Assembly: GCA_937127245.1 (NCBI GenBank)
Contig: CAKZLU010000041.1
Coordinates: 9,824 to 73,823, forward strand
Source: an uncultured Actinomycetes bacterium
Lineage (GTDB): Bacteria; Actinomycetota; Geothermincolia; Fen-727; JACVIW01
Reading direction: 5' to 3'
Length of the DNA stretch: 64,000 nt
Both the position numbers and the translations under genes were made by a program. The notes below the pieces were generated by a model. It had not been told where the DNA came from. It searched no databases and saw nothing but the letters and a program-made list of their open reading frames with translations. Of the stretch, positions 1 to 47,562 are shown piece after piece; position 1 is the stretch's first letter, and each line of letters opens with the position of its first letter.

Positions 1-190
1 CTTTTATGACTTGTGGGTAATGTTGAAGCCATTATTCTATCAAAGAAAAGTCCGAAACCCGATGAAACAAAAATGTAGTTTTAACCCAGTTTCAGGCAGT
101 TAACTCATGCGTTTAATATTTCGATATTAGTTAATGAAAAAGGATTGTAGTAACCTTTGATCCTGGAAAAAAATAGGAGGTTTTTTCGGG

Positions 191-3100
191 ATGTCAGTTG
201 TCAGGGTGCGATATCCTTTGTCTGGGCTGAAGAGATTTGCAATACTCGCATTATCGAGTCTGGTTTTCTTGTTGCTTTGCCTTGCTTTACTCCCGAACGA
301 AGCGACCGCCGCTTTGGGTGCTTGGGATGATGCCAAGATAAAGTGGATGATATATCCAACCTTAGGCAATCCGGCGATTGTCAAAAGTGGAGGATATTTC
401 GACCTTGAGCTTGATCCCAGAAGGGGGGTGTATTATCAAAACCCCTTACCTGTGCTCGAAGAAGTAAGCGTGAATGTTGTTTCCAGTTGTGATAAGTACC
501 CCTACTCCGGGAAGCTGCCCGTTGAGTCATTTGAGGCTGGATATAGCAAACGCTGGCCTGAGTTGAAGCCCGAGACGTCGATCGACAAAAGGATTTACCT
601 CATAAGAGTGCGGGTACCCTATTACGTACCACGCGATCTCTATGATGTTTCGGTTAAAGCAACATTAAAAGGTGGAAAGACGCTGAGCGATTCTCAGCCC
701 CATTCTCTTATGGTTGTTGAATCTTTCAAGAAGCGTTTCTCGTTTGTTCAGTTGTCGGATATACACGTTTTCGGTCCGGAAGTGAGCTATCCAGGTTCCA
801 ATCAGAAAGAAAGGAGCGGAAGACCCCGGTACGAGGGAGACCCCGGTCCTAACCGAAAAGGAGCAATTTATTATAGAAAGGCTATAAATCAGATAAATAT
901 CATGAAACCGGATTTCTGCATTTTTACCGGCGATTATATTTTTGGTCAAAAGTATTTCACTAAAGACCAGGGAGAGCCCTGGGGCACCACCACGGAATAT
1001 GAGTATGAGATGCTCTGGTTTTACGAGGAAACGCTCAAGCTGGAGGTTCCCGTCTTCATGGTTTTGGGAAATCACGACGGATATTACGAAAGCAGTTACG
1101 GGGCGGGCGAGGACTGGCAGGAAAACTGGAAAAGGATGTTTGGTCCTCTCTACTATACCTTCGATTACGGTGACGCAAGATTCTTCGTTTTGAACTCCCT
1201 CGACTGGGCTATGACCGATAGGAGCCTCTTCGATTGGTTAGGCATAATACTCCAACCTCGGAAATATAAAGGTCAGCTAAGAGGAGGAGGGGACCCCTGG
1301 GAGAGCGGAATCAGTGAGGAACGTTTTGCGCAGATAGATGAAAAGAAATTTACCGGGCAACTTGCATGGTTGAGGGATGAACTCAAGGCAAGCAAGGATA
1401 AAGCAATCAGAATATGCGCCATGCATCATGACCCCTTCAAAGATAACGGCAGCGGTTCCATGTGGGAGGATGATTTTTTGGGAATGGGTGGAGGTCAGGG
1501 AAGGCTTGCGGTGATGAAGCTTATGAGAGACTACAATGTGGCTCTCGAAATCAGCGGGCACGATCACTCAGACTATGTGGGTTCTATGAAATGGTCTGAC
1601 GGAAAAGGAAACGTTCTCTTTGTTAACACCACCTCAACATCTTTCCAGTCTGACGGGAACTCAGATGTTTATCCAGGATACAGGAGGATCTGGATAAACG
1701 GAGACAAGGTGGAGAGTTTCAACTACCTCGACCCGAAGTTTTCGTATCCTTTCTACAAGGGAACCAACGTGGGCGGCACTACTAATCTCGGATCTTTGGT
1801 AACCCCTGCGATTGAAACAAGCTGGAGTCCCGGTGCTCCTGGAAATTATAAAGACGTGACCTGCACCGTGGTAAACAATCTATCAAAATCGCTACCGGGC
1901 GCTTATCTTGAGTACCCCATGCCGCACCTGTCTAATGGATATTACTACAAAGTAAGTAACGGTCGATTAGGCGATATTTACGACGTTACCGTATCAGGCG
2001 TGAAGAAAAGGGTCTATCAGGTTTATGCGGATGTTGACGAGGTTGGGACCAAGAGTGTGAGGCTGTCTGTTAGTTCAAGCCCCGACAAAAAAGCGCCTAC
2101 GGCTTCAATCTTGATAAATGACGGTGCGAAAACGACCACTTCCAGGAGTGTGAATTTGTCTTTGAAAGCGCGCGACGGCGAGTCCGGTTTGATGGGAATG
2201 ATGATCTCAAATTACCCTGATTTTAGGGGCGCCAAGTGGGAGCGATTCCAGACAAGGAAAGAGTGGAAACTGGCTTCCGGTGAATCGGGCAGGCGGACTG
2301 TTTACGCAAGATTTGCCGATTGCGCGATGCCCTCCAACGTAACCGAGGTCAAGGCCACAATAATCTACGTTAGTACGTCAGGAAACGAAGGACCTTCCTC
2401 AAACTGGTACTTTGCCGAAGGGTGCACAAGGGATGGATTTGAAGAGTGGCTGACAATCCAGAACCCGTTTGAGGACGTTTGCGATGTTGACATAACTTTC
2501 ATGCTGGAAAACGGGGAAAATATACCCCTTAGCCTTACCTTGGATGGCACGAGCCGTTACACACTGAACGTTAATCAAGTGGTCGGTCCGGAAAGGGATG
2601 TGTCTTTGGTCTTAGAATCGAGCCTTCCCGTATACGCTGAAAGACCATTGTATTTCAACTATCAAAAAATGTGGCGGGGTGGAGACGTTGTCGTTGGCGC
2701 AAGGAAGCCGCTTACCAGGTGGTATTTTGCTGAAGGGTGCACGAGGGAAATTCCGGGCTCAGCCAATTTTCACACATGGTTTTGCGTTCTCAACCCACAG
2801 CCTAACCAAGCAAAGGTCAAGCTAACTTATATGCTTTCAACGGGTGAGACGAGGGAGACAAATTGCGTAATTGCGCCGAAATCAAGAAAGACAATTTGCG
2901 CCAACTGGGAAATCGGACCAGGACATGATTTTTCAACCGTTGTGGAAGCTTCGCTTCCCGTTGTTTGCGAACGCCCCGTATATTTTGACTACGGGGGCGT
3001 AATTTTCGGCGGTCACAACGTAATGGGGATCAAAGATTCCTCAAGGGAATGGTACTTCGCGGAGGGAACGACTAACTATCGGTTCGATAATTATTTGTGC

Positions 3101-3658
3101 ATCCAGAATCCTTCAGATTATGAGGCGCAGGTAAAGATTGAGTACAGGCTAAAAACCGGTGACAGGAAGCTCAGAGAGATTTCGGTTTCCCCGAAGAGCA
3201 GATACACCCATTTTCTGAACAGCGACCTCGCGCCGGGTGAGGATTTCTCGCTCGCCGTTTTTTCAGATGTCCCGGTTCTTGCGGAACGCCCCGTTTATTT
3301 CATCTATGGTCCATCCCTGGACGGCGGGCACTGCGTTACGGGAATAAATATGCCCAGGACCGAGTTCTTTTTTGCTGAAGGATGCACGCGTGACAATTTT
3401 GAGGAATGGTTGTGTATTCAGAATGCCACCGAGCGCAAAGCGAAGGTGAAGATCGACTATATGCTTGGAAATTCTGAGACGAGAACGCAGGAAATTGAGG
3501 TAAATCCCTATTCTCGATACACGGTTAGCGTTAACGCCTTTCTGGGCGGTGAATATGATGTGTCAGTAAGAGTAAGATCCGACCGTGACCTTGTGGTTGA
3601 AAGACCGATATATTTTCTCTATGGCGCAAAATGGGCAGGGGGTCATTGCGCCATTTAA
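191..3658 (+). CDS. Secreted multidomain protein: N-terminal signal peptide, calcineurin-like metallophosphoesterase domain, and four C-terminal tandem ~105-aa repeats
   Basis: GGAGG RBS at 175-179, 11 nt before the ATG. N-terminus MSVVRVRYPLSGLKRFAILALSSLVFLLLCLALLPNEATA-ALG looks like a signal peptide with an AxA cleavage site. Metallophosphoesterase motifs are LSDIHVFG (D-x-H), FTGDYIFG (GD), VLGNHDG (GNHD), AMHHDP and ISGHDHSDY (GHxH). The C-terminal third is four repeats, each starting W/F-YFAEG-C/T-T and ending ERP-V/L/I-YF. Confidence 0.85.
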   Translation: MSVVRVRYPLSGLKRFAILALSSLVFLLLCLALLPNEATAALGAWDDAKIKWMIYPTLGNPAIVKSGGYFDLELDPRRGVYYQNPLPVLEEVSVNVVSSCDKYPYSGKLPVESFEAGYSKRWPELKPETSIDKRIYLIRVRVPYYVPRDLYDVSVKATLKGGKTLSDSQPHSLMVVESFKKRFSFVQLSDIHVFGPEVSYPGSNQKERSGRPRYEGDPGPNRKGAIYYRKAINQINIMKPDFCIFTGDYIFGQKYFTKDQGEPWGTTTEYEYEMLWFYEETLKLEVPVFMVLGNHDGYYESSYGAGEDWQENWKRMFGPLYYTFDYGDARFFVLNSLDWAMTDRSLFDWLGIILQPRKYKGQLRGGGDPWESGISEERFAQIDEKKFTGQLAWLRDELKASKDKAIRICAMHHDPFKDNGSGSMWEDDFLGMGGGQGRLAVMKLMRDYNVALEISGHDHSDYVGSMKWSDGKGNVLFVNTTSTSFQSDGNSDVYPGYRRIWINGDKVESFNYLDPKFSYPFYKGTNVGGTTNLGSLVTPAIETSWSPGAPGNYKDVTCTVVNNLSKSLPGAYLEYPMPHLSNGYYYKVSNGRLGDIYDVTVSGVKKRVYQVYADVDEVGTKSVRLSVSSSPDKKAPTASILINDGAKTTTSRSVNLSLKARDGESGLMGMMISNYPDFRGAKWERFQTRKEWKLASGESGRRTVYARFADCAMPSNVTEVKATIIYVSTSGNEGPSSNWYFAEGCTRDGFEEWLTIQNPFEDVCDVDITFMLENGENIPLSLTLDGTSRYTLNVNQVVGPERDVSLVLESSLPVYAERPLYFNYQKMWRGGDVVVGARKPLTRWYFAEGCTREIPGSANFHTWFCVLNPQPNQAKVKLTYMLSTGETRETNCVIAPKSRKTICANWEIGPGHDFSTVVEASLPVVCERPVYFDYGGVIFGGHNVMGIKDSSREWYFAEGTTNYRFDNYLCIQNPSDYEAQVKIEYRLKTGDRKLREISVSPKSRYTHFLNSDLAPGEDFSLAVFSDVPVLAERPVYFIYGPSLDGGHCVTGINMPRTEFFFAEGCTRDNFEEWLCIQNATERKAKVKIDYMLGNSETRTQEIEVNPYSRYTVSVNAFLGGEYDVSVRVRSDRDLVVERPIYFLYGAKWAGGHCAI
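2404..3655 (+). repeat. Four in-frame tandem coding repeats of ~315-327 nt (~105-109 aa) inside the 191-3658 CDS
   Basis: Repeat units start near nt 2404 (NWYFAEGCTRDGFEEWLTIQNP), 2718 (RWYFAEGCTREIPG...FCVLNP), 3045 (EWYFAEGTTNYRFDNYLCIQNP) and 3362 (EFFFAEGCTRDNFEEWLCIQNA). Each unit has a conserved C-x-Q/L-N-P, then K-V/I-K-I/L-x-Y-M/R-L, then ERPxYF-x-YG. Confidence 0.7.
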
Positions 3659-3808
3659 ATTGCGCAGTTTAAACTTTTTCAATGCCCCGTTTGAATCTCC
3701 CCTTCGCATGAGGAAAAGAAGTGTTCGGGAATAGAGAAAGCATTGGAATCTTTTTGATTCATTAGTTGTTTCTTCGAGTCAGCTATCTATAGTGATATTC
3801 TATAAACT

Positions 3809-4240
3809 ATGAGCAGTGAAAAAGAATCGCCATATTTCCTTTTTGAGCAAGGAAAGAAATTACTTGAAGAGGGTCATCCCGCTCAGGCTGCAATGGTTTT
3901 GGAGAAAGCGAGGGAGGATTTCCCCAAAAAAGGGTCTATTCTCGAGGTTTTAGGCAGGGCATATTACACTTACGGCAGATACGACGAGGCTGCCTTACGT
4001 TTTGAAGAGGCTGTTGAGGTTGACCCCACAAATGACTACGCCCACTACTGCCTGGGTCGGTGTTATCTTAAACTCAAGAGAAAAAGTGAGGCCGGTAAGC
4101 ATTTCAAGCTTGCCTGGAACCTGAAACCGTGTGAGATGTACAGACAGGAAGCCCTGCGATTCGGAGCGGTCTTTAACCGACCGTACCCGGGCCCAGCGGA
4201 AACGGAGTTTGACCAGAATCGTGACCCGGAGAATTTTTGA
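3809..4240 (+). CDS. Tetratricopeptide (TPR) repeat protein
   Basis: TPR-like helices are visible in AAMVLEKAREDFPKKGSILEVLGRAYYTYGRYDEAALRFEEAVEVDPTNDYAHYCLGRCYLKLKRKSEA. The stop overlaps the next gene's start (ATGA). Confidence 0.65.
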   Translation: MSSEKESPYFLFEQGKKLLEEGHPAQAAMVLEKAREDFPKKGSILEVLGRAYYTYGRYDEAALRFEEAVEVDPTNDYAHYCLGRCYLKLKRKSEAGKHFKLAWNLKPCEMYRQEALRFGAVFNRPYPGPAETEFDQNRDPENF

Positions 4241-5064
4241 GATGGAGGTATCGGGATTTGAGGGAAGAGGACCTGAGAAATTTCAAGGGTCTGATAATCG
4301 ATCTTGATGGAGTAGTTTATCTTCTTAACGAAGCAGTACCGGGTTCACCGGAAGCCATAGCCGAAATCCAGCAATGCGAAATCCCCTTTGTTTTTCTGAC
4401 TAACAATTCTTCAGCGACTCCAGAGCAGTATTCGAATAAACTTGCCGGCTTCGGTATAAAGGTTTCGCCGGAACAGGTAGTCACATCCTCTCAGGCGGTC
4501 AGGAAGTATCTTCAAGAAAAGATAGGAAATCGAAAAGCGAGCGCTTTCGTTATTGGCGAAATAGGTCTGGTAAGCGAAGTCGAGAAGGTCGGCTTGATCA
4601 TTCTGAACGGTGAAGAGAGCTCCGATGCCGACGTGGTTGTCGTGGGTTGCGACAGGCATTTTGACTACGCAAAGCTTAAAGCGGCTGTCGTGGCGATCAG
4701 AAATGGTGCATTGTACATAGCCTCAAACGCTGACGCCACTTACCCGACCCCGAACGGTCTCTGGCCCGGCGCGGGAGCGATAGTTGCCGCCGTAACCACG
4801 GGCGCGGGTAGGGAACCTTTCATCGCGGGGAAGCCGAACAGACTGATTGTTGAACTTGCGTTGGAAAGGCTTGGTACATCGCCCCAGGATACTCTTCTCA
4901 TTGGCGACAGGCTTGATACTGACATCAAAGCAGGTGTCTCGGCAGGCGTAAAAACAGCGCTCGTACTTACAGGGGTTTCAAAGGAAGAGGAAATTGTAAA
5001 GACGGGAATACGTCCCGATTTCGTTTGCGCAAGCCTAAGCGCTTTGGTTAACTTTAAATGTTAG
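4237..5064 (+). CDS. HAD-superfamily hydrolase, subfamily IIA (NagD/p-nitrophenyl phosphatase-like)
   Basis: Motif I is [10 protein letters not shown] (DxDG). The protein also carries FLTNNS and the C-terminal [14 protein letters not shown] motif typical of HAD-IIA. Confidence 0.8.
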
Positions 5065-34469: not shown

Positions 34470-34557
34470 TGGTGCCGAAGGCCGGATTCGAACCGGCACG
34501 GGGTTTTTCCCCACTGGTTTTTGAGACCAGCGCGTCTACCCATTCCGCCACTTCGGC
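34470..34557 (-). tRNA. tRNA-Leu (anticodon CAA), 88 nt with encoded CCA
   Basis: The reverse complement reads GCCGAAGTGGCGGAATGGGTAGACGCGCTGGTCTCAAAAACCAGTGGGGAAAAACCCCGTGCCGGTTCGAATCCGGCCTTCGGCACCA. It has a 7-bp acceptor stem, a Leu-type D-loop, anticodon loop CUCAAAA, a long variable arm (GGGG-AAAAA-CCCC) and a TTCGAAT T-loop. Confidence 0.9.
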
Positions 34558-34941: not shown

Positions 34942-37629
34942 ATGGGCAAGAACTACGTTTTGATTGACGGGCATGGATTAGCCTACAGGGCATTCTTCGC
35001 TTTGCCGCAAACTCTTACGACAACGGAAGGACAACCAACGAACGCCGTCTACGGTTTTATGAACATGCTTTTCAAGGTTATGACTGAGGAAGAACCTGAC
35101 GCTGTGATCGTGGCGTTGGACGGACCGCGGGCGGAACTTAAAAGGACAGCCGAATTTCCCGAGTATAAAGCGCAAAGACCCCCGATGCCCGATGAGTTGA
35201 GAAGCCAAATTTCGCTGATTGTCGAACTGCTTGAAGCGCTGGGAATTCCCGTTGTCCAACTTGAGGGTTACGAAGCTGACGACATCATTGGAACGCTCTC
35301 GAAAAAGATATCTGACTCAGAGGGGCAGGCGGTCATCGTCACCGGTGACAGGGACGCTCTTCAGCTTGTGGGAGAGCGTGTCAAAGTCTTATTGACCGAG
35401 AAGGGGATTTCAGAGGTAAAAGCTTATGGGGTAGAAAAGGTCATTAAGAAATATGGTGTCCCCCCCGAAAAGATTCCGGATATCGTCGGTCTAAAGGGAG
35501 ACCCTTCAGACAATATTCCCGGAGTACCGGGAATTGGCGATAAGGGAGCGCAGGAACTCATAAGCAAATTCGGCTCGCTTGAAGACCTTTATGAAAATCT
35601 TGACAAGATTGGCGGAGCGAAGAGAAGGGAGTCGATCGAAAACAACAGGGAAATGGCTTTTCTTTCGAGGAAGCTCGCCGTGATCGACCGCTGTGTTCCA
35701 ATTGACGTGGATCTCGATTCTTTGAGGCTCGGACAATGGGATAAGGAGAGCGTCATCGATAAGATGGACTCCCTCGAGTTCAAGTCGTTAATAAAGCGGT
35801 TTTTGGAATTCACGAAAGAAGCTGACCATGAAGACAGGACAACCGCAAAAGAAACAGTCGAGTTTGAAATCTTGGACGGAACCGACCCGGAGTGCAGAAA
35901 GGAGTTCCAGAAGGCTTTAGAGAATGAGATTCATATTAGCGTCTCGGGCAAGACCGAAAATAAGGGATACTGTGATATTCAGATAGAATCTATCGCTTTT
36001 TTTTCCGGGGATAAAGCCATTGTCATACCATTTGATGAGGATGATGAACAATCTATTGGTTTCGTAAAAAAGGTCCTTTCCTCTCATAACGAGAAGGTTG
36101 TGCACGACGGCAAAGGTATCATCGAGGCTCTTTCAAAAAAGGGTATCGAATTCTCCAACCTCGGCTTTGATACCGCAATAGCAGCGTATCTCTTAAACCC
36201 ATCGCTTGGTACCTATCATCTATGGAACCTCTGGGAAAACAATGTTGGAAAGCGACTTGCTGTCAGGGGAAGACAATATCCCGAACCGGAGCAGGCGAGC
36301 CTGCTTGATGTCAATCAGGTGCAAGACGTAACCCGTACCGCTTCTGAAGCCGTAAACATTTACTATTTGAGAAAACCTTTATGCCAGAAACTTCAGCAAG
36401 ATGCAATGCTTGATCTGTTTAAGGACATAGAGATGCCGCTCATGCTCGTGCTTGCGGACATGGAGAAGAACGGCGTGGCTGTTGATGCTGACATTTTAAA
36501 GAGCCTATCGGCGGAAGCCCAGAGTAGTCTTGAAGCTCTTGAGAAAGAGATATTCGAACTCGTGGGACATGAGTTTAACGTTGGTTCTCCGAAGCAGCTC
36601 GGGGAAGTGCTCTTCGAGGAGTTGGGTTTACCGCCGGTAAAGAAAACGAAGACTGGCTACTCGACAGATTCGTCGGTGCTGGAAACCTTAAAACCGTACC
36701 ACCCCGTGGCGGAAAAGATAATTGAACACAGGGAAATTTCTAAACTTAAATCAACTTATTTTGACGTTCTTCCCCAGCTTATTTGCCCGGCTACCGGCAG
36801 GATACACTGTTCTTTTAATCAAACGGCAACGGCCACCGGAAGAATATCATCGAGCAACCCGAATCTACAGAATATCCCTGTCAGGACTGAACTTGGCAAG
36901 AAAATAAGAAGGGCTTTCATCCCCGGAGAGGAAGGATGGAAACTGCTTGTGGCTGACTACTCCCAGATCGAGCTTAGAGTTCTTGCCCATATGTCCGAAG
37001 ACTCTCTTTTGCTTGAAGCCTTCGCGAGGGACGCTGATATTCATACCGAAACGGCCGCGAGCCTGTTCGGTGTGTCGACTGATCAGGTCACTCCTGAACT
37101 GCGCAGGATGGCTAAAGTGGTGAACTTCGGCGTTGTTTACGGGATGGGGTTTTACGGGCTTTCCTCGCGAATGGGAATGAGCAGAGAGGACGCAATGGAA
37201 TATATCAACAGGTATTTCCAGAAATACGAGGGGGTCAAGCGTTATCGGGAGAGGTGTATCCAGGAAGCGGCGGAAAAAGGCTACACGGAGACGCTCCTGG
37301 GAAGAAGACGTTACGTCAAGGAGCTTTCCAGTTCCAACAAACAAACGAGGGAACTCGGGGAAAGGCTCGCCATTAACACGCCGCTTCAGGGGACCGCCGC
37401 AGATATCATCAAGAAGGCGATGGTGGATGTCTCCGCAGAATTGAAGATGAGAAAGTTAAAAAGCAGAATGATTCTCCAGATCCATGATGAATTGATATTC
37501 GAGGTTAGTCCCGACGAGGCTGAAGAGCTCAAGGATATGGTATCGTCTCTCATGTCTTCAGTGCTTGACCTTCGCGTCCCTCTGAAAGTTGATCTTGGAA
37601 TTTACGACAATTGGGGAGAGGCAAAATAG
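34942..37629 (+). CDS. polA: DNA polymerase I
   Basis: 5'-nuclease domain (VLIDGHGLAYRAFFAL), a 3'-5' exonuclease-like middle, and polymerase motifs A (LLVADYSQIELRVLAHMS), B (RRMAKVVNFGVVYG) and C (LQIHDELIFEV). Confidence 0.95.
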   Translation: MGKNYVLIDGHGLAYRAFFALPQTLTTTEGQPTNAVYGFMNMLFKVMTEEEPDAVIVALDGPRAELKRTAEFPEYKAQRPPMPDELRSQISLIVELLEALGIPVVQLEGYEADDIIGTLSKKISDSEGQAVIVTGDRDALQLVGERVKVLLTEKGISEVKAYGVEKVIKKYGVPPEKIPDIVGLKGDPSDNIPGVPGIGDKGAQELISKFGSLEDLYENLDKIGGAKRRESIENNREMAFLSRKLAVIDRCVPIDVDLDSLRLGQWDKESVIDKMDSLEFKSLIKRFLEFTKEADHEDRTTAKETVEFEILDGTDPECRKEFQKALENEIHISVSGKTENKGYCDIQIESIAFFSGDKAIVIPFDEDDEQSIGFVKKVLSSHNEKVVHDGKGIIEALSKKGIEFSNLGFDTAIAAYLLNPSLGTYHLWNLWENNVGKRLAVRGRQYPEPEQASLLDVNQVQDVTRTASEAVNIYYLRKPLCQKLQQDAMLDLFKDIEMPLMLVLADMEKNGVAVDADILKSLSAEAQSSLEALEKEIFELVGHEFNVGSPKQLGEVLFEELGLPPVKKTKTGYSTDSSVLETLKPYHPVAEKIIEHREISKLKSTYFDVLPQLICPATGRIHCSFNQTATATGRISSSNPNLQNIPVRTELGKKIRRAFIPGEEGWKLLVADYSQIELRVLAHMSEDSLLLEAFARDADIHTETAASLFGVSTDQVTPELRRMAKVVNFGVVYGMGFYGLSSRMGMSREDAMEYINRYFQKYEGVKRYRERCIQEAAEKGYTETLLGRRRYVKELSSSNKQTRELGERLAINTPLQGTAADIIKKAMVDVSAELKMRKLKSRMILQIHDELIFEVSPDEAEELKDMVSSLMSSVLDLRVPLKVDLGIYDNWGEAK

Positions 37630-40704: not shown

Positions 40705-42690
40705 TTGCCCAAGTTCAGATTAAAAACCGCGTTCAAACCCGAAGGTGATCAGCCTCGAGCAATAGATGGTCTTGTCGGGGGCTTGAGAGACGGGGAAAGG
40801 TTTCAGGTGCTGCTGGGCGTCACCGGCAGTGGGAAGACTTTTACGATGGCAAAAGTGATCGAAGCCGTTCAGCGTCCCGCGCTAGTCCTTGCCCCTAACA
40901 AGACTCTCGCGGCTCAACTCTATTCGGAGTTCAGGGAGTTCTTCCCCGAAAATGCCGTCGAATACTTCGTCAGTTACTACGACTATTATCAGCCGGAAGC
41001 CTATATTCCTTCGACCGACACCTACATAGAAAAGGATTCCTCGATCAATGATGAAATAGACAGACTTAGACACGCGGCTACCAGCGCTCTCCTTTCCAGG
41101 GAGGACGTGATAATCGTGGCGAGCGTTTCCTGCATATATGGGCTCGGCTCGCCCGATGAGTATTTCAACAGGATGCTGCATCTCGAAACGGGATGCTCCT
41201 ATGAAAGAGAGCAGATATTGGAGAAACTCGTTGACATAAGGTATGAAAGAAATGATGTGGCTCCCGAGAGAGGGAATTTCCGCGTTCGGGGTGACGTGAT
41301 TGACATTTTTCCTGCTTACTGGGACAAAGACATGATAAGGATTGAAATGTTTGATGAGACTGTCGAGTCTGTCAAGGAAATAGACCCGCTGACCGGGGAA
41401 ATCAAATCCAGATTGGACAGGGTTGTCATATGGCCTGCAACTCACTTCCTCACCCCCACTGACAGGCTCTTTCAAGCGATTGAATCGATAGAGATGGAAC
41501 TTGCAGAGCGGCTTAAGGAACTTGAGTCGCTTGGAAAAATACTTGAGGCGCAGAGGCTTAAGATGAGGACGATGTACGACATTCAGATGTTAAAGGAGAC
41601 CGGTTACTGCCACGGGATTGAAAACTACAGCAGGCACTTATCCGGCAAGAAACCGGGCGAACCTCCTTATACGCTTATCGATTTTTTTCCTCCGGGTTTC
41701 CTCACCTTTATTGACGAATCTCATATAACAGTTCCTCAGCTTGCGGGTATGCTCCACGGTGACAGGTCGAGAAAAGAAACGCTGGTTGAATACGGATTCA
41801 GGCTTCCCTCAGCGCTTGACAACAGACCGTTGTCTCAGGAGGAGTTTTTCGAAAAGGTTGGACAGGTTATCTTCGTGAGCGCCACGCCCTCTGACTGGGA
41901 GATAGAAAGAAGCTCGAGGATAGTCGAGCAGGTGATAAGACCTACAGGTTTGGTTGACCCGGAAGTCGAGGTTAGACCGGCTAACGGTCAGGTTGACGAC
42001 CTCATATCAGAGATCAAGAAGAGAACAGAAAGAAATGAACGCGTGCTCGTCACAACGCTCACGAAGAAAATGGCAGAGAGTCTCGCGGAGTACTTAAGCG
42101 AGATGGGAATGAAGGTGAGATACCTCCATTCTGAGATTGGAACGGTTGAAAGAGTGGAGATACTAAGGGACCTTAGAGCCGGAGTTTTTGATGTTATCGT
42201 CGGAATTAACCTTCTAAGAGAAGGTCTTGACCTTCCAGAGGTTTCACTGGTTGCGATTCTGGATGCCGACAAGCAGGGTTTTCTCAGAAGCGAGAAGAGT
42301 CTGATACAGACAATGGGCAGAGCGAGCAGAAACGTTAACGGCAGGGTAATCTTGTACGCGGAAGAATGTTCGGAGGCTATGAGAAAAGCCATTGATGAGA
42401 CGAAAAGAAGAAGGAATCTGCAGCTCGAATACAACAGGATGCACGGCATCAACCCGCAAACAATACAGAAAGAGGTCAGGGATATACTTGACGTGGCTAT
42501 TTCGGGGCAGAGGGATATCGCCTCCGATATCGTCATGCGGGCGAGAAAGCTACCGGTTGACAAGGTCCAGAGGCTTATCATGAATCTCCAGGAAGAGATG
42601 CGCATACTTGCAGAGGAATTGCGCTTCGAAGAAGCCGCCAAGGTGAGGGACCAGATCAAAAAAATCACGGAGGAGTTGCTTGTTAGTTGA
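40705..42690 (+). CDS. uvrB: Excinuclease ABC subunit B
   Basis: [23 protein letters not shown], Walker A GVTGSGKT, the helicase motifs and the C-terminal UVR domain ([22 protein letters not shown]). TTG start with a GGGAGGG SD. Confidence 0.95.
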
Positions 42691-45569
42691 GCCAGGGATT
42701 CATAAGAATAAGGGGAGCAAGGGAGCATAACCTAAAAGACATAAATCTCGATATCCCTCGCGACAAACTGGTCGTGATGACCGGGATAAGCGGGTCCGGG
42801 AAATCATCCCTCGCCTTTGACACAATATACGCCGAGGGGCAAAGGCGTTACGTCGAATCATTATCCGCGTACGCAAGGCAGTTTCTGGGACAACTCGATA
42901 AACCCGACGTTGACCTGATTGAGGGTTTATCCCCGGCAATTTCCATTGATCAAAAGAGCGGGACTACCAACCCGAGGTCAACGGTGGGAACGGTGACCGA
43001 GATTTATGACTACCTGCGCGTTTTGTACGCCCGTATCGGCGATGCCCACTGCTATATTTGCGGCAAAACTCTTTCCAGACAATCCGCGGGACAGATAACG
43101 GACAGGATTCTTTCATATCCAACCGGAAGCAAGTTGGTGATTCTTGCTCCGCTTGTGAGGGGGAGAAAAGGTGAGCATGCCCACGTGTTCGACTCGCTCA
43201 GAGAGAAAGGGTATGTAAGGGTAATGGTAGACGGAGAAATGAGGGACCTCTCAGAGGAAATAAAACTCGACAAGAAAAAATCCCACGAGATACTTTCCGT
43301 AGTGGACAGGCTCGTGATCAAAGAGGGAGTGAGAACGAGGGTCGCGGAGTCTGTGGAAGCAGCGCTCCAGCTCGGTGAAGGTCTGGTTTTGGTTCAGGAT
43401 GAGAACGGAAGAAGAGAAAATTTCAGCCAGGAATTAGCATGTATTGAATGCGGGGTGAACTTCCCTGAGATTTCCCCGAGGCTCTTTTCGTTCAATAGCC
43501 CTTACGGGGCGTGTAAAGCATGCGGCGGGCTTGGTCACCGGCAGGAAATCGACCCCGATCTGGTAATCCCTGATCGGGAAAGAAGCATCCTGGAAGGGGC
43601 GATAGCCCCGTGGGAAGCGACGAATCTTCCTTACTTTTATGAAATTGTCGAGGGGCTTGCCAGAAAATACGGTTTTAGCCTGGATGAGCCTTTCTCAAAA
43701 ATCGACGAGGAAGCGCAGAGGGCGATTCTCTACGGTTGCGGAAGAACTGAAGTGCCAGTAGTAAGGCGGGGCCTGGACGGTCGAAGAAAAGCGTATTCCG
43801 TTCTGTGGGAAGGGGTCATCCCGATGCTTGAGCGCAGATACCACGAGACCGATTCAGACTACGCCCGATGGAGGATTTCAACCTACATGAGCGTAAGACC
43901 ATGCCCCTCATGCAACGGGGCAAGGTTGCGGCCGGAAAGTCTCGCCGTGAAGGTGGGCGGCATTTCCATCGCGGAGTTTTGCGATATGACGGTCGAAAAG
44001 GGCCTCGAGTTTATATGGTCTCTCGATCTGGATGAAAAAAAGAAGACGATAGCATCACGGTTGCTCAAGGAAATAGAGTCGAGGATGCAGTTTATGGTTG
44101 ATGTTGGACTCGAATACCTGACTCTTTCGCGTGCTGCCTCTACTCTTGCGGGCGGGGAGTCACAGCGCATCAGGCTTGCCACTCAGATAGGCTCAGGGCT
44201 GGTCGGCGTTTTATACATACTTGACGAGCCGAGCGTTGGACTTCACAAAAGAGATAACAGCAGACTGCTTTCCACCCTGAAGAGACTCAGGGACCTGGGA
44301 AATACCGTGATCGTTGTGGAACATGATGAGGACACTATAAGGGCGGCGGACCACATAGTGGATATCGGTCCGGGGGCGGGGATTCACGGCGGCAGGATTG
44401 TCGCTCAGGGTACGATATCTGACATTATCAGTTCTAAGGATTCGATAACGGGAAAATATTTGAGCGGTGAATTGAAAATTGATGTTCCATCAAAGAGAAG
44501 AAGACCTAACGGAAAAAGCATTATTGTTCGCGAAGCAATTGAGCACAACCTGAAAGGAATAGATGTAGAATTTCCGCTCGGTCTGTTCATCTGTGTTACA
44601 GGTGTGAGCGGTTCTGGGAAGAGCACCCTTATAAGCGACATTCTCTACAGGGGTCTAAAAAGAAAACTCACTTCATCCAGAACACCGCCCGGCAGGCATC
44701 GTTGTATTGAGGGAACGGAGTTGATTGATAAGGTGGTCAACATCGACCAGTCGCCCATCGGCAGAACGCCGAGGTCGAATGCGGCGACTTACACTAAAGT
44801 CTTCGATCACATCAGGGCTCTTTTCGCAAGCACGCCCCAGGCAAAGGTGAGGGGGTATCGCCCCGGGAGGTTCAGCTTTAACGTGCCCGGGGGGAGGTGC
44901 GAGGCTTGTCATGGTGAGGGGATGGTAAGAATAGAGATGCATTTCCTCCCCGATGTCTATATCACTTGCGAGCACTGCAAGGGCAAGAGATTCAACAGGG
45001 AAACACTTGAGGTTCGTTACAGGGGAAAGAATATCCATGACGTTCTCGAGATGACCGTCGAGGAAGCCATGGAGCATTTTGAGAACATTCCACCGATAAT
45101 AAGGCAGCTTGAGATATTAAGCGATGTGGGGCTCGGATATCTGAGACTCGGTCAGCCTGCCACGACGCTATCTGGCGGTGAGGCGCAAAGGGTCAAGCTT
45201 GCGCGTGAACTTTCCAAAAGACCTACCGGAAAAACGGTGTACCTTTTAGATGAGCCCACGACAGGGCTCCATTTCGATGACATAAAAAAGCTGCTTGATG
45301 TTTTAGACAGGCTCGTCGAATGGGGCAACATGGTGATAGTCGTCGAACATAACATGGACGTGATAAAGTTTGCCGACTACATCATCGATCTTGGTCCCGA
45401 AGGGGGAAACAAGGGTGGAGAAATAGTAGCGTGCGGCGCGCCCGAGGAAATAGCAAGATGCGAGCGCTCATACACCGGAAAATATCTTGCGAAAGTGTTA
45501 AGGAAAGACCAAGAACGCCTGGCGACTCGCGCAGGTGCCGCTCAGGGCGCTGTGGTTAAGACTTCGTGA
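42687..45569 (+). CDS. uvrA: Excinuclease ABC subunit A
   Basis: [14 protein letters not shown], two ABC ATPase modules ([12 protein letters not shown]; [11 protein letters not shown]), zinc fingers CxxC (CYICG, CIECG, CPSCNG, CEACHG...CEHCKG). Overlaps the uvrB stop. Confidence 0.95.
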
Positions 45570-45615
45570 ATCAGGGAATGATGGGTGATTTTCTAACAGA
45601 TGCGGGTGCAATCAT

Positions 45616-47562
45616 ATGGCGGGTGAAGGTGTCTGGAAAACCGGTATAGATTTTATCCCAGAATCTCCCGGAGTGTACGTTTTTAAGGACGCCAAAGGCC
45701 GCGTAATATACGTTGGAAAGGCAAAATCCCTCAGGGACAGGTTAAAAGCGTACGTACAACCCGCGCAGCATTCCGATTACAAAGGCAGGGCTTTAAGGGA
45801 CCAGATCGATGGTTTTGAGGTCACGGTTTGCCCAAGCGAAGTCGAGGCTTTGATACTTGAAGCGGAGCTGATAAAGAAATATAAGCCGAGATTCAACGTT
45901 CTGTTACGCGACGACAAAAGCTACCCCTACATAGCCATAACCCTTTCAGAAAGATTCCCGAGGGCGATACTGACGCGTGGGCGAAAGGTGCCCGGTTATA
46001 AGTATTACGGACCCTACGTTAACGCTCAAGCGGCGCGTAGAACGCTGGCTTTGCTGCAAAGGGTTTTTCCCTTGAGACACTGCAAAGGCGCTCACCCCGG
46101 AGAAAGGGGGAGGTCTCCCTGTCTTTATTACGAGATGGAAATGTGCATGGGACCATGCAGGGGGGATATTGATAGGGATTCATACGCCCGTGAGGTTGGA
46201 TCGCTGTGTCAGTTTCTTGAAGGAAAACACCAGACTTTTTTGAAAAATCTCGAACTTGAAATGAAGCGGGCGGCTCAGAACATGGAATTTGAGAGGGCTG
46301 CAAGAATAAGAAATCAGATAGAGGCTGCGCGGAAAGTTCTTTCGCACGGAAACAGGTCTTCAACAGGTTTGGAGGATTATGATGTGATAGGTTACTCAAG
46401 AGATGAGCTTGAAGCGGCTTTTGTTGTTGCAAGGTATCGTTCCGGCGCGCACCTGGGCAATTTCTGCATGTACATCAAGTTGTCCACTGAAATAACCGAC
46501 AAAGAGCTCGTTACTGAATTCATTAAGAGGTATTACGCCGATTCCAGCTCGATACCGCCTCTTGTGGTGGTTTCCGTAAAACCTCAAGACGAGTCCGTTG
46601 AGGATTGGCTCTCCTCACTTAGGTCTTCCCGCGCGGAAATACGAGTCCCCTTGAGGGGAACCAAAAGGAAGAACCTTGCGCTGGCGTGTGAAAACGCTGC
46701 TCTCGCGCTTGAGAAGTCCAAGGCGGAGAGAATGTCTGACCGTGAAAATCTTGATAAGGCTTTAAAGGAATTAACACTTTTGCTCGGGCTTGGACGCTAC
46801 CCGTTGAGGATTGAATGTTACGACGTATCCACGATGATGGGTACCGCGTCTGTCGGATCAATGGTTGTATTCGAGGATGGTATCCCCAGGCGCTCTCACT
46901 ACAGGAAATTCAAGATAAAACATACCCCTGGAATAAATGACGTAGGCATGATGAGCGAAATACTCATGCGAAGGTTTAAAAGTCTTACAGAAGAACCGCG
47001 TAAAGGAGAAGAGAAAAGCAAGGTAGTCGATTCAAGTTTCGCCAGGAAACCAGACCTAGTTATTGTGGATGGCGGAAAAGGGCAACTCGGTGCGGCATTG
47101 AAGGTTTTTGAGAAAATTGGGCTCGCAGGTACGGAATTCGCGGCTCTGGCAAAAAGGCTTGAAGAGATTTACAGACCTGGTATTGATGAGCCCATAATCC
47201 TTCCGAGAAACTCAGAAGCTCTCTTCTTAGTTCAGAGGATCAGGGACGAGGCACACAGATTTGCTGTTTCTTATCATAAGAAACTCATGGAAAAGCGAAT
47301 CTCAGAGTCATGGCTGGACGATGTTGCCGGGGTGGGACCGGGTCGTAAGAGAAAACTGATTGAGCATTTTGGCTCACCATCAAAGGTGGCCGAGGCTTCT
47401 TTGGATGAGCTCAAGCGTGTGCCCGGCATACCTTCGAACGTTGCCAAGGCACTGCTTTCTGCCGCGCGTTCGCTACATAAATATGAAAGCAAAGAGAGCT
47501 CTGGAAGTAAGTTTCGCAGAACTGATTCACCTTGGAATGAAGCAAAGGATGAAGGTCATTAA
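45616..47562 (+). CDS. uvrC: Excinuclease ABC subunit C
   Basis: GIY-YIG (GVYVFKDAKGRVIYVGKAKSLRDRL), the UVR domain, the RNase H-like endonuclease domain and the C-terminal HhH motifs. Confidence 0.95.
   Translation: MAGEGVWKTGIDFIPESPGVYVFKDAKGRVIYVGKAKSLRDRLKAYVQPAQHSDYKGRALRDQIDGFEVTVCPSEVEALILEAELIKKYKPRFNVLLRDDKSYPYIAITLSERFPRAILTRGRKVPGYKYYGPYVNAQAARRTLALLQRVFPLRHCKGAHPGERGRSPCLYYEMEMCMGPCRGDIDRDSYAREVGSLCQFLEGKHQTFLKNLELEMKRAAQNMEFERAARIRNQIEAARKVLSHGNRSSTGLEDYDVIGYSRDELEAAFVVARYRSGAHLGNFCMYIKLSTEITDKELVTEFIKRYYADSSSIPPLVVVSVKPQDESVEDWLSSLRSSRAEIRVPLRGTKRKNLALACENAALALEKSKAERMSDRENLDKALKELTLLLGLGRYPLRIECYDVSTMMGTASVGSMVVFEDGIPRRSHYRKFKIKHTPGINDVGMMSEILMRRFKSLTEEPRKGEEKSKVVDSSFARKPDLVIVDGGKGQLGAALKVFEKIGLAGTEFAALAKRLEEIYRPGIDEPIILPRNSEALFLVQRIRDEAHRFAVSYHKKLMEKRISESWLDDVAGVGPGRKRKLIEHFGSPSKVAEASLDELKRVPGIPSNVAKALLSAARSLHKYESKESSGSKFRRTDSPWNEAKDEGH

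What the first reader, a model, noticed from the sequence alone, without database searches (positions are those of the whole stretch)
191..3658. 1155-aa secreted metallophosphoesterase ending in four tandem ~105-aa repeats with an unrecognised WYFAEGCT...CxQNP...ERPxYF signature
The protein has an N-terminal signal peptide and a complete calcineurin-like phosphoesterase motif set (D-x-H, GD, GNHD, HHD, GHxH). A ~230-aa middle region follows. The last ~420 aa consist of four in-frame tandem repeats with a period of 315-327 nt, each carrying strictly conserved W/F-YFAEG-C/T-T, C-x-Q/L-N-P and ERP-x-YF motifs. I cannot place the repeat in any named Ig-like, fibronectin, PKD or S-layer family from memory, so it may be an uncharacterised cell-surface or substrate-binding module attached to an extracellular phosphoesterase or nuclease. 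The gene has a strong consensus RBS (GGAGG) and is the first gene of the window; its upstream region is AT-rich.
Basis: seen in the sequence. Interest (0 to 1): 0.6.

Follow-up and report, generated by a model that had tools for sequence, protein, structure and literature searches.

The report
Secreted phosphoesterase with ASRT-like tetrad
The gene encodes an exported metal-dependent phosphoesterase whose four C-terminal repeats are not a new fold but four copies of the already described ASRT/DUF5719 ("ASRAH") sugar-binding-type domain, a fixed four-domain block that many surface proteins of this uncultured actinobacterial lineage carry, most likely to hold them on the cell wall.

Summary
ORF 191..3658 (+) encodes 1155 aa with an N-terminal hydrophobic leader, a complete metallophosphoesterase motif set and four tandem 100-110-aa repeats.

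The claim that the repeat is unrecognised does not hold.
- The whole protein passes Pfam gathering scores for DUF5719 (PF18986) and ASRT (PF07100).
- A profile of the repeats finds TM1070 (1nc7) and ASRT (2ii7).
- The AlphaFold model of each repeat superposes on 1nc7 (TM 0.82, rmsd 1.9 A).
That paper noted these domains come as dyads or tetrads.

The copy number is fixed, not variable.
- 39 of 40 repeat-bearing homologues with three or more copies have exactly four.
- 128 of the 147 newly returned top hits from a profile search of 1.84 billion proteins have four, usually at the extreme C-terminus.
- The N-terminal parts of those hits are unrelated: peptidoglycan amidase, proteases, propellers, Ig domains, CapA.
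- The tetrad models as one compact body (pTM 0.92).

Best reading: a surface-displayed phosphoesterase from a Candidatus Geothermincolia actinobacterium, held on the wall by a glycan-binding ASRAH tetrad. The substrate and the ligand are unknown. It is a new member of a known kind, of modest interest.

The parts
176..180 (+). Shine-Dalgarno-like GGAGG, 10 nt upstream of the ATG
   Evidence: Read directly in the sequence.
191..3658 (+). Whole gene, 1155 aa plus stop codon
   Evidence: ORF list. An identical protein, P0001, is called on an ENA metagenome contig.
191..310 (+). N-terminal leader, aa 1-40: a signal peptide or an N-terminal membrane anchor, with a hydrophobic helix at about aa 12-34 and A-T-A|A at 38-41
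   Evidence: Hydropathy scan. AF2 models a helix at 12-33 with low pLDDT. An N-terminal hydrophobic segment is present in 85 of 94 family members. SignalP was not available.
338..730 (+). N-terminal beta-sandwich domain, about aa 50-180, packed against the catalytic domain
   Evidence: AF2 strands 53-176 with pLDDT above 90. Foldseek aligns the N-terminal region of about 500 aa (alignments of 506-566 columns, presumably this domain plus the catalytic domain) with purple acid phosphatase/phytase, 3zk4 and 6giz. No Pfam hit.
734..1720 (+). Metallophosphoesterase catalytic domain, about aa 182-510, with all metal-ligand motifs
   Evidence: PF00149 at E 3e-17. Motif positions. D190, D248, N294, H295, H412 and H459 are invariant in 64 homologues.
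1721..2080 (+). Linker plus beta-sandwich domain, about aa 511-630. It is part of the conserved ~740-aa core.
   Evidence: AF2 strands 541-627 with pLDDT above 90. No Pfam family at E up to 10. Present in the homologues that lack the repeats.
2099..2368 (+). Ig-like beta domain, aa 637-726, the last domain of the core
   Evidence: AF2 strands 637-726. Conserved in core-only homologues (consensus). No Pfam family. 'Ig-like' is my reading of the strand pattern and was not tested by a domain-level fold search.
2396..2710 (+). ASRAH (ASRT/DUF5719-type) domain 1, aa 736-840
   Evidence: HMM boundaries. AF2 pLDDT about 95. Matches the 1nc7 fold.
2711..3040 (+). ASRAH domain 2, aa 841-950, with a 5-aa insertion after AEGCTRE
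   Evidence: On its own it hits PF07100 ASRT at E 4e-4.
3041..3355 (+). ASRAH domain 3, aa 951-1055
   Evidence: It aligns to TM1070 with its Cys on the structure's LCIMN Cys. It hits DUF5719 at E 7e-4.
3356..3655 (+). ASRAH domain 4, aa 1056-1155, ending at the C-terminus
   Evidence: It hits DUF5719 at E 3e-5.

Best explanation
The gene encodes an exported enzyme of an uncultured Actinomycetota bacterium of the Candidatus Geothermincolia group. After export through the N-terminal leader, a ~740-aa core sits outside the membrane. The core consists of a beta-sandwich, a binuclear-metal phosphoesterase domain and two beta domains. It hydrolyses an extracellular phosphate ester; which one is not known. 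The last 420 aa are four ASRAH domains (the fold of ASRT and TM1070). They pack into one compact pseudo-tetrameric body.

My inference is that this body binds a carbohydrate of the cell envelope, either peptidoglycan or a wall-associated polymer. That would keep the enzyme on the cell surface, much as the SLH triplet does in other Gram-positive lineages.

Shown: the domain identities, the intact active site, the fixed number of four, and the wide reuse of the tetrad on unrelated exported proteins, including peptidoglycan amidases.

Inferred: export, compact packing (from pTM only), sugar binding, and the anchoring role.
For: Identity of the repeat:
- Pfam DUF5719 scores 42.7 bits (gathering score 26.2) and ASRT 34.2 bits (gathering score 25).
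- A profile of 33 repeats hits 1nc7 at E 1.5e-5 and 2ii7 at 5e-4.
- Foldseek with the tetrad model gives 1nc7 at probability 1.00, TM 0.82, rmsd 1.9 A, and ASRT chains at TM 0.72-0.84.
- The defining Trp and the invariant Asn (160 of 160 repeats) are present.

A fixed tetrad:
- 39 of 40 repeat-bearing homologues with three or more copies have four.
- Repeats tend to match the repeat at the same position in other proteins, so the tetrad is old.
- Of the 147 newly returned proteins among the best 150 hits, out of 8896 cluster representatives, 128 have four copies and 7 have eight. In 126 of the 147 the array ends within 15 aa of the C-terminus.
- 85 genome-encoded ORFs have four.
- The tetrad alone models with pLDDT 94.9 and pTM 0.92.

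Anchor role:
- The N-terminal parts are unrelated to one another: TIG, PD40, subtilase, C39-like peptidase, multicopper oxidase, FG-GAP, purple acid phosphatase, and Amidase_3 in both orders, CapA, beta-helix, propellers and Ig domains.
- One MAG has at least 5 such genes.
- An N-terminal hydrophobic segment is present in 95 of 112 tetrad proteins.

Active enzyme: all metal ligands are invariant or nearly so in 64 homologues.
Against: - No ligand has ever been shown for any ASRAH domain. Sugar binding is a 2009 prediction from context and from an ethanediol molecule in a crystal.
- I could not see model coordinates, so the compact pseudo-tetramer rests on pTM alone. It was not superposed on the 1nc7 tetramer.
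- About half of the enzyme's own family lacks the tetrad and ends after the Ig-like domain, so the tetrad is dispensable for the enzyme.
- If the leader is an uncleaved membrane anchor, a second anchor is less needed.
- A minority of tetrad proteins carry the tetrad near the N-terminus.
- The gene neighbourhood gives no functional clue: DUF1015, TPR, HAD, PaaK, with no phosphate-uptake or wall-synthesis genes.
- The top-150 list favours multi-copy proteins because scores add up, so it says little about proteins with one or two copies.
Confidence: 0.55

Rival explanations
1. The tetrad is a substrate-targeting module, like a carbohydrate-binding module on a glycoside hydrolase. It would bring this particular phosphoesterase to a phosphorylated polymer that the enzyme cleaves, such as a teichoic-acid-like wall polymer, a phosphorylated exopolysaccharide or extracellular DNA, for phosphate scavenging or wall turnover.
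For: - ASRAH domains are predicted small-molecule or sugar binders.
- The enzyme is a phosphoesterase whose nearest folds are purple acid phosphatases and phytases, and SMPDL3A, which was crystallised with 5'-CMP.
- Fusion of the tetrad to peptidoglycan amidase is just as compatible with substrate targeting for that enzyme.
Against: - The same tetrad sits on proteases, multicopper oxidases, beta-propellers and plain Ig or TIG arrays. These cannot share one substrate with a phosphoesterase.
- About half of the orthologous enzyme family works without it.
Confidence: 0.25
2. The tetrad is a protein-protein assembly unit, for example an S-layer-like lattice or an oligomerisation platform, and not a glycan binder.
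For: - ASRT and TM1070 are homotetramers, and ASRT was reported to interact physically with a rhodopsin.
- There are weak Pfam hits to S-layer protein Slr4 in some tetrad proteins.
- The tetrad has a high pTM.
Against: - The Slr4 hits are faint and below threshold.
- Nothing here shows inter-molecular contacts.
- Fusion to wall amidase and CapA points to the wall rather than to a protein lattice.
Confidence: 0.1
3. The repeats are a passive spacer or stalk of Ig-like beads that merely holds the enzyme away from the membrane. This was the reader's implicit alternative when it proposed variable repeat numbers.
For: - The repeats are tandem beta-sandwich domains at the end of an exported protein.
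- Relatives carry other spacer-type domains such as TIG and Big_7.
Against: - The copy number is fixed at four, or eight, and is not variable.
- Polar residues are invariant in every copy: E in AEG, N, S-R, E-R, Y.
- The tetrad is at the distal C-terminus, not between the anchor and the enzyme.
- pTM 0.92 argues for a compact body.
Confidence: 0.05

Closest known systems
ASRAH superfamily (de Souza, Iyer and Aravind 2009, Biol Direct 4:25): ASRT (PDB 2ii7) and TM1070 (PDB 1nc7)
   Same: - The same eight-stranded beta-sandwich (TM 0.82 to 1nc7).
- The same conserved Trp at the start of strand 1 and the same invariant Asn at the end of strand 2.
- Four domains per unit, matching the homotetramer of the solo proteins.
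   Different: ASRT and TM1070 are single-domain cytoplasmic proteins that assemble from four chains. Here four diverged copies (40-44% identical) lie in one exported chain. The SHEshChhN signature of the solo family is replaced by F-E-E-W-L-C-I-Q-N.
Pfam DUF5719 (PF18986). I take it to be the 2009 paper's actinobacterial cell-surface lipoprotein family with two ASRAH domains; that identification is my inference.
   Same: It is the best-scoring Pfam family (42.7 bits; NCBI names several homologues 'DUF5719 family protein'). It has the same WY[FL]AEG...QNP...SR...ER.MY signature.
   Different: - Only model positions about 48-130 (one domain), or 54-240 (two domains), of 319 are matched.
- There is no lipobox Cys (the leader reads LLLC-LA).
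- The flanking N- and C-terminal extensions are absent.
- There is a tetrad instead of a dyad.
- There is no WhiB / glycosyltransferase / inactive-zincin neighbourhood.
Amidase-linked ASRAH tetrads of Chloroflexi (family 2 of the 2009 paper)
   Same: - Secreted proteins with four ASRAH domains next to an enzyme domain.
- Relatives in the same lineage as this window also carry Amidase_3 plus a tetrad (L045, L015).
   Different: In 2009 this family was described as always fused to an amidase. Here the partner is a metallophosphoesterase, and in this lineage there are dozens of other partner domains.
SLH-domain triplet of Firmicutes and other S-layer or wall-associated proteins (resemblance recalled from general knowledge, not tested here)
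   Same: A fixed small number of tandem copies forms one pseudo-symmetric body. It is attached to many unrelated exported proteins of one lineage.
   Different: The fold is unrelated (SLH is helical). For SLH the ligand, a pyruvylated secondary cell-wall polymer, is known. Here no ligand is known.
Purple acid phosphatases / phytases (3zk4, 6giz) and SMPDL3A (5ebe)
   Same: They have an MPP catalytic domain. The alignments of 506-566 columns to purple acid phosphatase and phytase suggest they also share the N-terminal beta-sandwich. They are the top structural neighbours of the core (probability 1.00), and they are extracellular phosphoesterases.
   Different: - TM is only 0.35-0.44 and identity 11-15%.
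- The first motif is DxH, not DxG.
- The GDxxY tyrosine ligand is absent (GDYIF).
- There is no Pfam Pur_ac_phosph_N hit.

Membership tests
Calcineurin-like metallophosphoesterase superfamily (PF00149) | Motif set DxH / GD / GNH(D/E) / H / GHxH that supplies the ligands of the binuclear metal centre | tested here: met
   D190-x-H192, G247-D248, G293-N-H-D296, H412 and G456-H-D-H459. They are invariant or at least 90% conserved in 64 homologues.
Calcineurin-like metallophosphoesterase superfamily (PF00149) | Profile match above Pfam's gathering score | tested here: met
   64 bits against a cutoff of 21.5, E 3.3e-17, aa 184-460 covering model positions 2-190 of 191.
Calcineurin-like metallophosphoesterase superfamily (PF00149) | Phosphoesterase activity | not testable with these tools
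   This needs an enzyme assay.
Purple acid phosphatase | GDxxY motif with the tyrosine metal ligand, and the Pur_ac_phosph_N domain | tested here: not met
   The motif reads G247-D-Y-I-F251, with Phe at the Tyr position. There is no PF16656 hit. Only a distant fold resemblance is seen.
ASRAH superfamily (ASRT / TM1070 fold) | Eight-stranded beta-sandwich that superposes on TM1070 / ASRT | tested here: met
   Foldseek gives 1nc7_B at E 1.7e-12, probability 1.00, TM 0.82, rmsd 1.9 A over 112 columns. The 2ii7/2ii8/2ii9/2iia chains give TM 0.66-0.84.
ASRAH superfamily (ASRT / TM1070 fold) | Conserved Trp at the start of strand 1 and nearly absolute Asn at the end of strand 2 | tested here: met
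   W739, W844 and W954, with F1059 in repeat 4. The Asn is in all four repeats and in 160 of 160 homologous repeats.
ASRAH superfamily (ASRT / TM1070 fold) | Significant sequence-profile relationship to ASRT / TM1070 | tested here: met
   PF07100 scores 34.2 bits against a cutoff of 25. The repeat profile against PDB gives 1nc7 at 1.5e-5 and 2ii7 at 5e-4.
ASRAH superfamily (ASRT / TM1070 fold) | Occurs as a tetramer, dyad or tetrad | tested here: met
   Four copies here. Four in 39 of 40 homologues with three or more copies, and in 128 of 147 top representatives. Tetrad pTM is 0.92.
ASRAH superfamily (ASRT / TM1070 fold) | Binds a sugar or other small molecule in the cleft | not testable with these tools
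   This is a prediction of the 2009 paper only. I found no experimental paper.
Pfam DUF5719 (taken here as the 2009 paper's actinobacterial ASRAH lipoprotein family) | Whole-protein score above the gathering threshold | tested here: met
   42.7 bits against 26.2. 23 of 33 single repeats hit it at E up to 0.01.
Pfam DUF5719 (taken here as the 2009 paper's actinobacterial ASRAH lipoprotein family) | Full-length architecture: a lipobox signal peptide, N- and C-terminal extensions, and two ASRAH domains | tested here: not met
   Only model positions 48-128 of 319 are matched. There is no lipobox. There are four domains behind a 735-aa enzyme core.
Pfam DUF5719 (taken here as the 2009 paper's actinobacterial ASRAH lipoprotein family) | Conserved neighbourhood with WhiB, a glycosyltransferase and an inactive zincin | tested here: not met
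   The neighbours are AAT, ECH, radical SAM and DUF1015 upstream, and TPR, HAD and PaaK downstream.

The most novel reading that the evidence does not exclude
The C-terminal ASRAH tetrad is the general cell-wall retention device of the surface proteome of Candidatus Geothermincolia and related deep-branching Actinomycetota. It would be a fixed four-domain pseudo-tetramer that recognises one wall glycan, making it a functional counterpart of the SLH triplet built on a different fold. If so, thousands of exported proteins, this phosphoesterase among them, are addressed to the wall by it. It would also give the first biochemical role to the ASRAH/DUF5719 superfamily.
Probability: 0.4. Interest if true: 0.5.

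Novelty: new member of a known kind. Interest (0 to 1): 0.3.

Why it matters
As posed, the finding loses its main claim. The repeat is a catalogued domain with solved relatives and a published superfamily analysis.

What remains useful is modest but concrete.
- The domain has never been characterised experimentally.
- This protein belongs to a very large set, 8896 clusters at 50% identity, in which the domain appears as an invariant tetrad on unrelated exported enzymes of an uncultured actinobacterial class.

That pattern gives a testable hypothesis about how these organisms attach proteins to their envelope. It also offers a convenient construct (aa 733-1155, which models at pLDDT 95) for finding the ligand of the ASRAH fold.

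The enzyme itself is one more extracellular phosphoesterase of unknown substrate.

Tried and rejected
- Tandem Repeats Finder on 1-4000 found no repeat in the gene, because the repeats are only 50-57% identical as DNA.
- NCBIfam gave nothing above E 0.02.
- Single repeats scanned alone stay below Pfam gathering scores, and repeat 1 hits nothing. Only the whole protein or a profile is convincing.
- phmmer of the core against PDB gave only an SbcD motif match at E 0.026, so I rejected a nuclease assignment.
- I considered membership in the purple acid phosphatases because of the fold hits. I rejected it because there is no GDxxY tyrosine and no Pur_ac_phosph_N domain.
- I looked for a conserved operon in seven neighbourhoods. 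Only lineage synteny appeared (DUF1015 ... TPR-HAD), with no functional partner.
- A word-indexed homologue search with the repeat profile returned only fragments of 200 aa or less, which says nothing about architecture. The exhaustive representative search replaced it.
- I considered a conserved intradomain disulfide between the AEG-C and L-C-IQN cysteines. I dropped it because repeats 1 and 3 each lack one of the two.
- I found no other ASRAH copy elsewhere in the 64-kb window.


Full report
1. THE OBSERVATION

The ORF at 191..3658 on the + strand is real and 1155 aa long. GGAGG lies at 176-180, ten bases before the ATG. The 190 bases upstream are 33.7% GC, against 48% for the gene.

The metallophosphoesterase motifs are all present: D190-x-H192, G247-D248, G293-N-H-D296, H412 and G456-H-D-H459. 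Pfam Metallophos matches aa 184-460 at E 3e-17.

The last 420 aa are four tandem units. They begin (W/F)(Y/F)FAEG at aa 739, 844, 954 and 1059 and end ERPxYF...GG(H/D). The units are 40-44% identical as protein and 50-57% as DNA. The duplication is therefore old, and Tandem Repeats Finder misses it. Two details of 'strict conservation' fail: repeat 1 has T for the Cys, and repeat 4 has A for the Pro. The periods are 315/330/315 nt.

2. WHAT THE REPEAT IS

The repeat is not an unknown module.
- The whole protein exceeds Pfam's gathering scores for DUF5719 (42.7 against 26.2 bits) and for ASRT, the Anabaena sensory rhodopsin transducer family (34.2 against 25).
- A profile of 33 repeats from nine proteins (this one and eight homologues) finds the two solved members of that family: TM1070 (1nc7, E 1.5e-5) and ASRT (2ii7, E 5e-4).
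- AlphaFold2 models the full protein at pLDDT 91.3 and the tetrad alone at pLDDT 94.9.
- With the tetrad model, every Foldseek match listed at probability 1.00 is a 1nc7 chain (TM 0.80-0.82, rmsd 1.9-2.5 A, about 20% identity) or an ASRT chain (TM 0.66-0.84). The full-length model also finds 1nc7.

De Souza, Iyer and Aravind (Biol Direct 2009, PMC2739507) defined this superfamily, which they named ASRAH. They described it by a conserved Trp at the start of strand 1 and a nearly invariant Asn that closes strand 2. The Asn is present in 160 of 160 repeats I collected. The Cys of CxQNP aligns with the Cys of TM1070's LCIMN. That is the residue the paper marks as C29, which contacts ethanediol in the crystal.

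The paper distinguished three families:
- solo cytoplasmic proteins that form tetramers;
- secreted tetrads fused to a peptidoglycan amidase in Chloroflexi;
- secreted actinobacterial lipoproteins with a dyad. I take these to be what Pfam now calls DUF5719; that identification is my inference.

It predicted sugar binding from gene context and from the cleft. I found no later paper on DUF5719 or ASRAH in the searchable library. The family is therefore catalogued but biochemically untested.

3. COPY NUMBER AND DISTRIBUTION

It does not.
- Among 103 homologues of the whole protein, about 55 are the ~740-aa core alone. A few carry one weak copy at the C-terminus.
- Of the 40 homologues with three or more copies, 39 have exactly four and one has three.
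- Each repeat most often finds its best match at the same ordinal position in other proteins. In the table of best matches, the same-position cell holds 41-73% of each row. The tetrad therefore predates the divergence of these proteins.

An exhaustive profile search of 1.84 billion representatives found 8896 proteins at E up to 1e-3 and 3725 at E up to 1e-30. Of the 147 newly returned proteins among the best 150:
- 128 have four copies, 7 have eight, 8 have five, 2 have nine, and one each has six and seven;
- in 126 the array ends within 15 residues of the C-terminus.

This list is biased towards many copies because scores add up. Even so, the near-absence of six and seven copies next to four and eight is informative.

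In 79 genome loci, 85 ORFs have four copies. Almost all of these genomes are MAGs of Actinomycetota labelled Candidatus Geothermincolia, Geothermincola, Solincola or Anoxymicrobiaceae. The 78%-identical orthologue is in Candidatus Geohydrothermomicrobium daggyaiense. Single MAGs contribute up to five loci to the best 80 of more than 582 matches.

4. WHAT THE TETRAD IS ATTACHED TO

The partner domains are unrelated to one another.
- From 60 representative proteins: TIG, PD40 propellers, fn3_5, C39-like peptidases, subtilases, FG-GAP, multicopper oxidases, purple acid phosphatases and other metallophosphoesterases.
- From genome loci: Amidase_3 on either side of the tetrad, CapA (PGA_cap), beta-helix plus He_PIG plus DUF11, BNR/sortilin propellers, and Big_7/Big_13.
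- 95 of 112 such proteins have an N-terminal hydrophobic segment, as do 85 of 94 members of the enzyme family.

A constant terminal module on many unrelated exported proteins of one lineage is the signature of a localisation device, not of a substrate-specific one. The link to peptidoglycan amidase points to the wall. The tetrad's pTM of 0.92 indicates that the four domains pack in a defined way. [quoted passage not shown] I could not inspect coordinates, so that step is an inference.

5. THE ENZYME

The ~740-aa core consists of four parts:
- an N-terminal beta-sandwich (aa ~50-180);
- the catalytic domain (aa ~182-510);
- a beta domain (aa ~541-627);
- an Ig-like domain (aa 637-726).

This core is the conserved unit of the family, and its metal ligands are invariant. 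The nearest structures are plant purple acid phosphatase and phytase, and mammalian SMPDL3A, at TM 0.35-0.44. However, the purple-acid tyrosine motif is absent (GDYIF), so I do not file the protein there.

No NCBIfam model matches. The JGI name 'CpdA' on some homologues is a generic label.

The neighbourhoods show only lineage synteny and no phosphate or wall genes. The rest of the window is housekeeping: PolA, S1, UvrABC, CTP synthase, NusA and IF-2. The substrate is therefore unknown. Scavenging phosphate from extracellular esters is the default guess and is not shown.

6. VERDICT

The most likely mechanism is wall retention through a glycan-binding ASRAH pseudo-tetramer, with overall confidence about 0.55. 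The rivals are substrate targeting (0.25), protein assembly (0.1) and passive stalk (0.05).

The novelty class is a new member of a known kind: a domain combination not listed in 2009, but already labelled by Pfam and NCBI. Interest is 0.3.

The most novel reading still open is that the tetrad is the general wall anchor of this lineage's surface proteome. I put its probability at 0.4 and its interest, if true, at 0.5.

Noticed in passing
L005:2992-3552, L007:2715-3467, L008:3030-3623, L010:3-485, L011:3052-3588, L013:3026-3586, L017:1761-3593: A gene pair recurs in seven MAGs. A small ORF (mostly ~160-250 aa; 611 aa in L017) with a single ASRAH-like domain at its C-terminus lies directly upstream of a ~1230-aa tetrad protein (Big_7/Big_13 domains in L011). 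The small ORF has no Pfam hit. It could be a partner subunit or a frameshifted 5' part.
   Followed up: partly
L052:5245-7770, L054:1948-4425, L073:3504-5909, L080:5134-7737, L082:4463-6868: A separate class of ~800-870-aa proteins gives five ASRAH hits, followed by about 120-135 aa of unassigned C-terminal sequence. This is the main exception to the rule of four.
   Followed up: no
L015:5881-7857, L040:2198-4609 (similar layouts in L021, L026, L028, L036, L037, L060, L063, L066): In a minority of proteins the tetrad is near the N-terminus and an enzyme domain follows it: Amidase_3 in L015 and PGA_cap/CapA in L040. So the tetrad is not obligatorily C-terminal.
   Followed up: partly
L083:8195-9109 (next to P0078) and the neighbourhood of P0050: Two core-only homologues of the phosphoesterase lie next to a DUF5684 gene. 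In L083 that gene overlaps the enzyme's stop codon. The window's own neighbourhood lists no DUF5684 gene.
   Followed up: no
P0028 (872 aa homologue): One homologue has a cytoplasmic-type zinc-ribbon (PF13240) in front of the hydrophobic segment. That implies an uncleaved type-II membrane anchor in that variant, and it leaves open whether the window's leader is cleaved.
   Followed up: partly
window 3809-5064: The TPR protein (143 aa) and the HAD-family hydrolase (275 aa) directly downstream are syntenic with the phosphoesterase in P0011's genome. They lie about 6 kb further downstream in P0026's genome. They are probably lineage synteny rather than an operon: a 150-nt gap separates them from the gene, and I saw no convincing terminator.
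   Followed up: partly
window 34470-34557 (-): This is the only tRNA in the window, tRNA-Leu(CAA). The surrounding genes are core housekeeping: PolA at 34942-37629, ribosomal protein S1, UvrB/A/C at 40705-47562, iPGM, NusA and IF-2. Nothing suggests a mobile element.
   Followed up: yes
P0102 (638 aa, 2.3-kb contig): This hit to the phosphoesterase (E 1e-108, 35% coverage) has Pfam domains of phenylalanyl-tRNA synthetase beta subunit. It is probably a chimeric or misassembled short contig.
   Followed up: no
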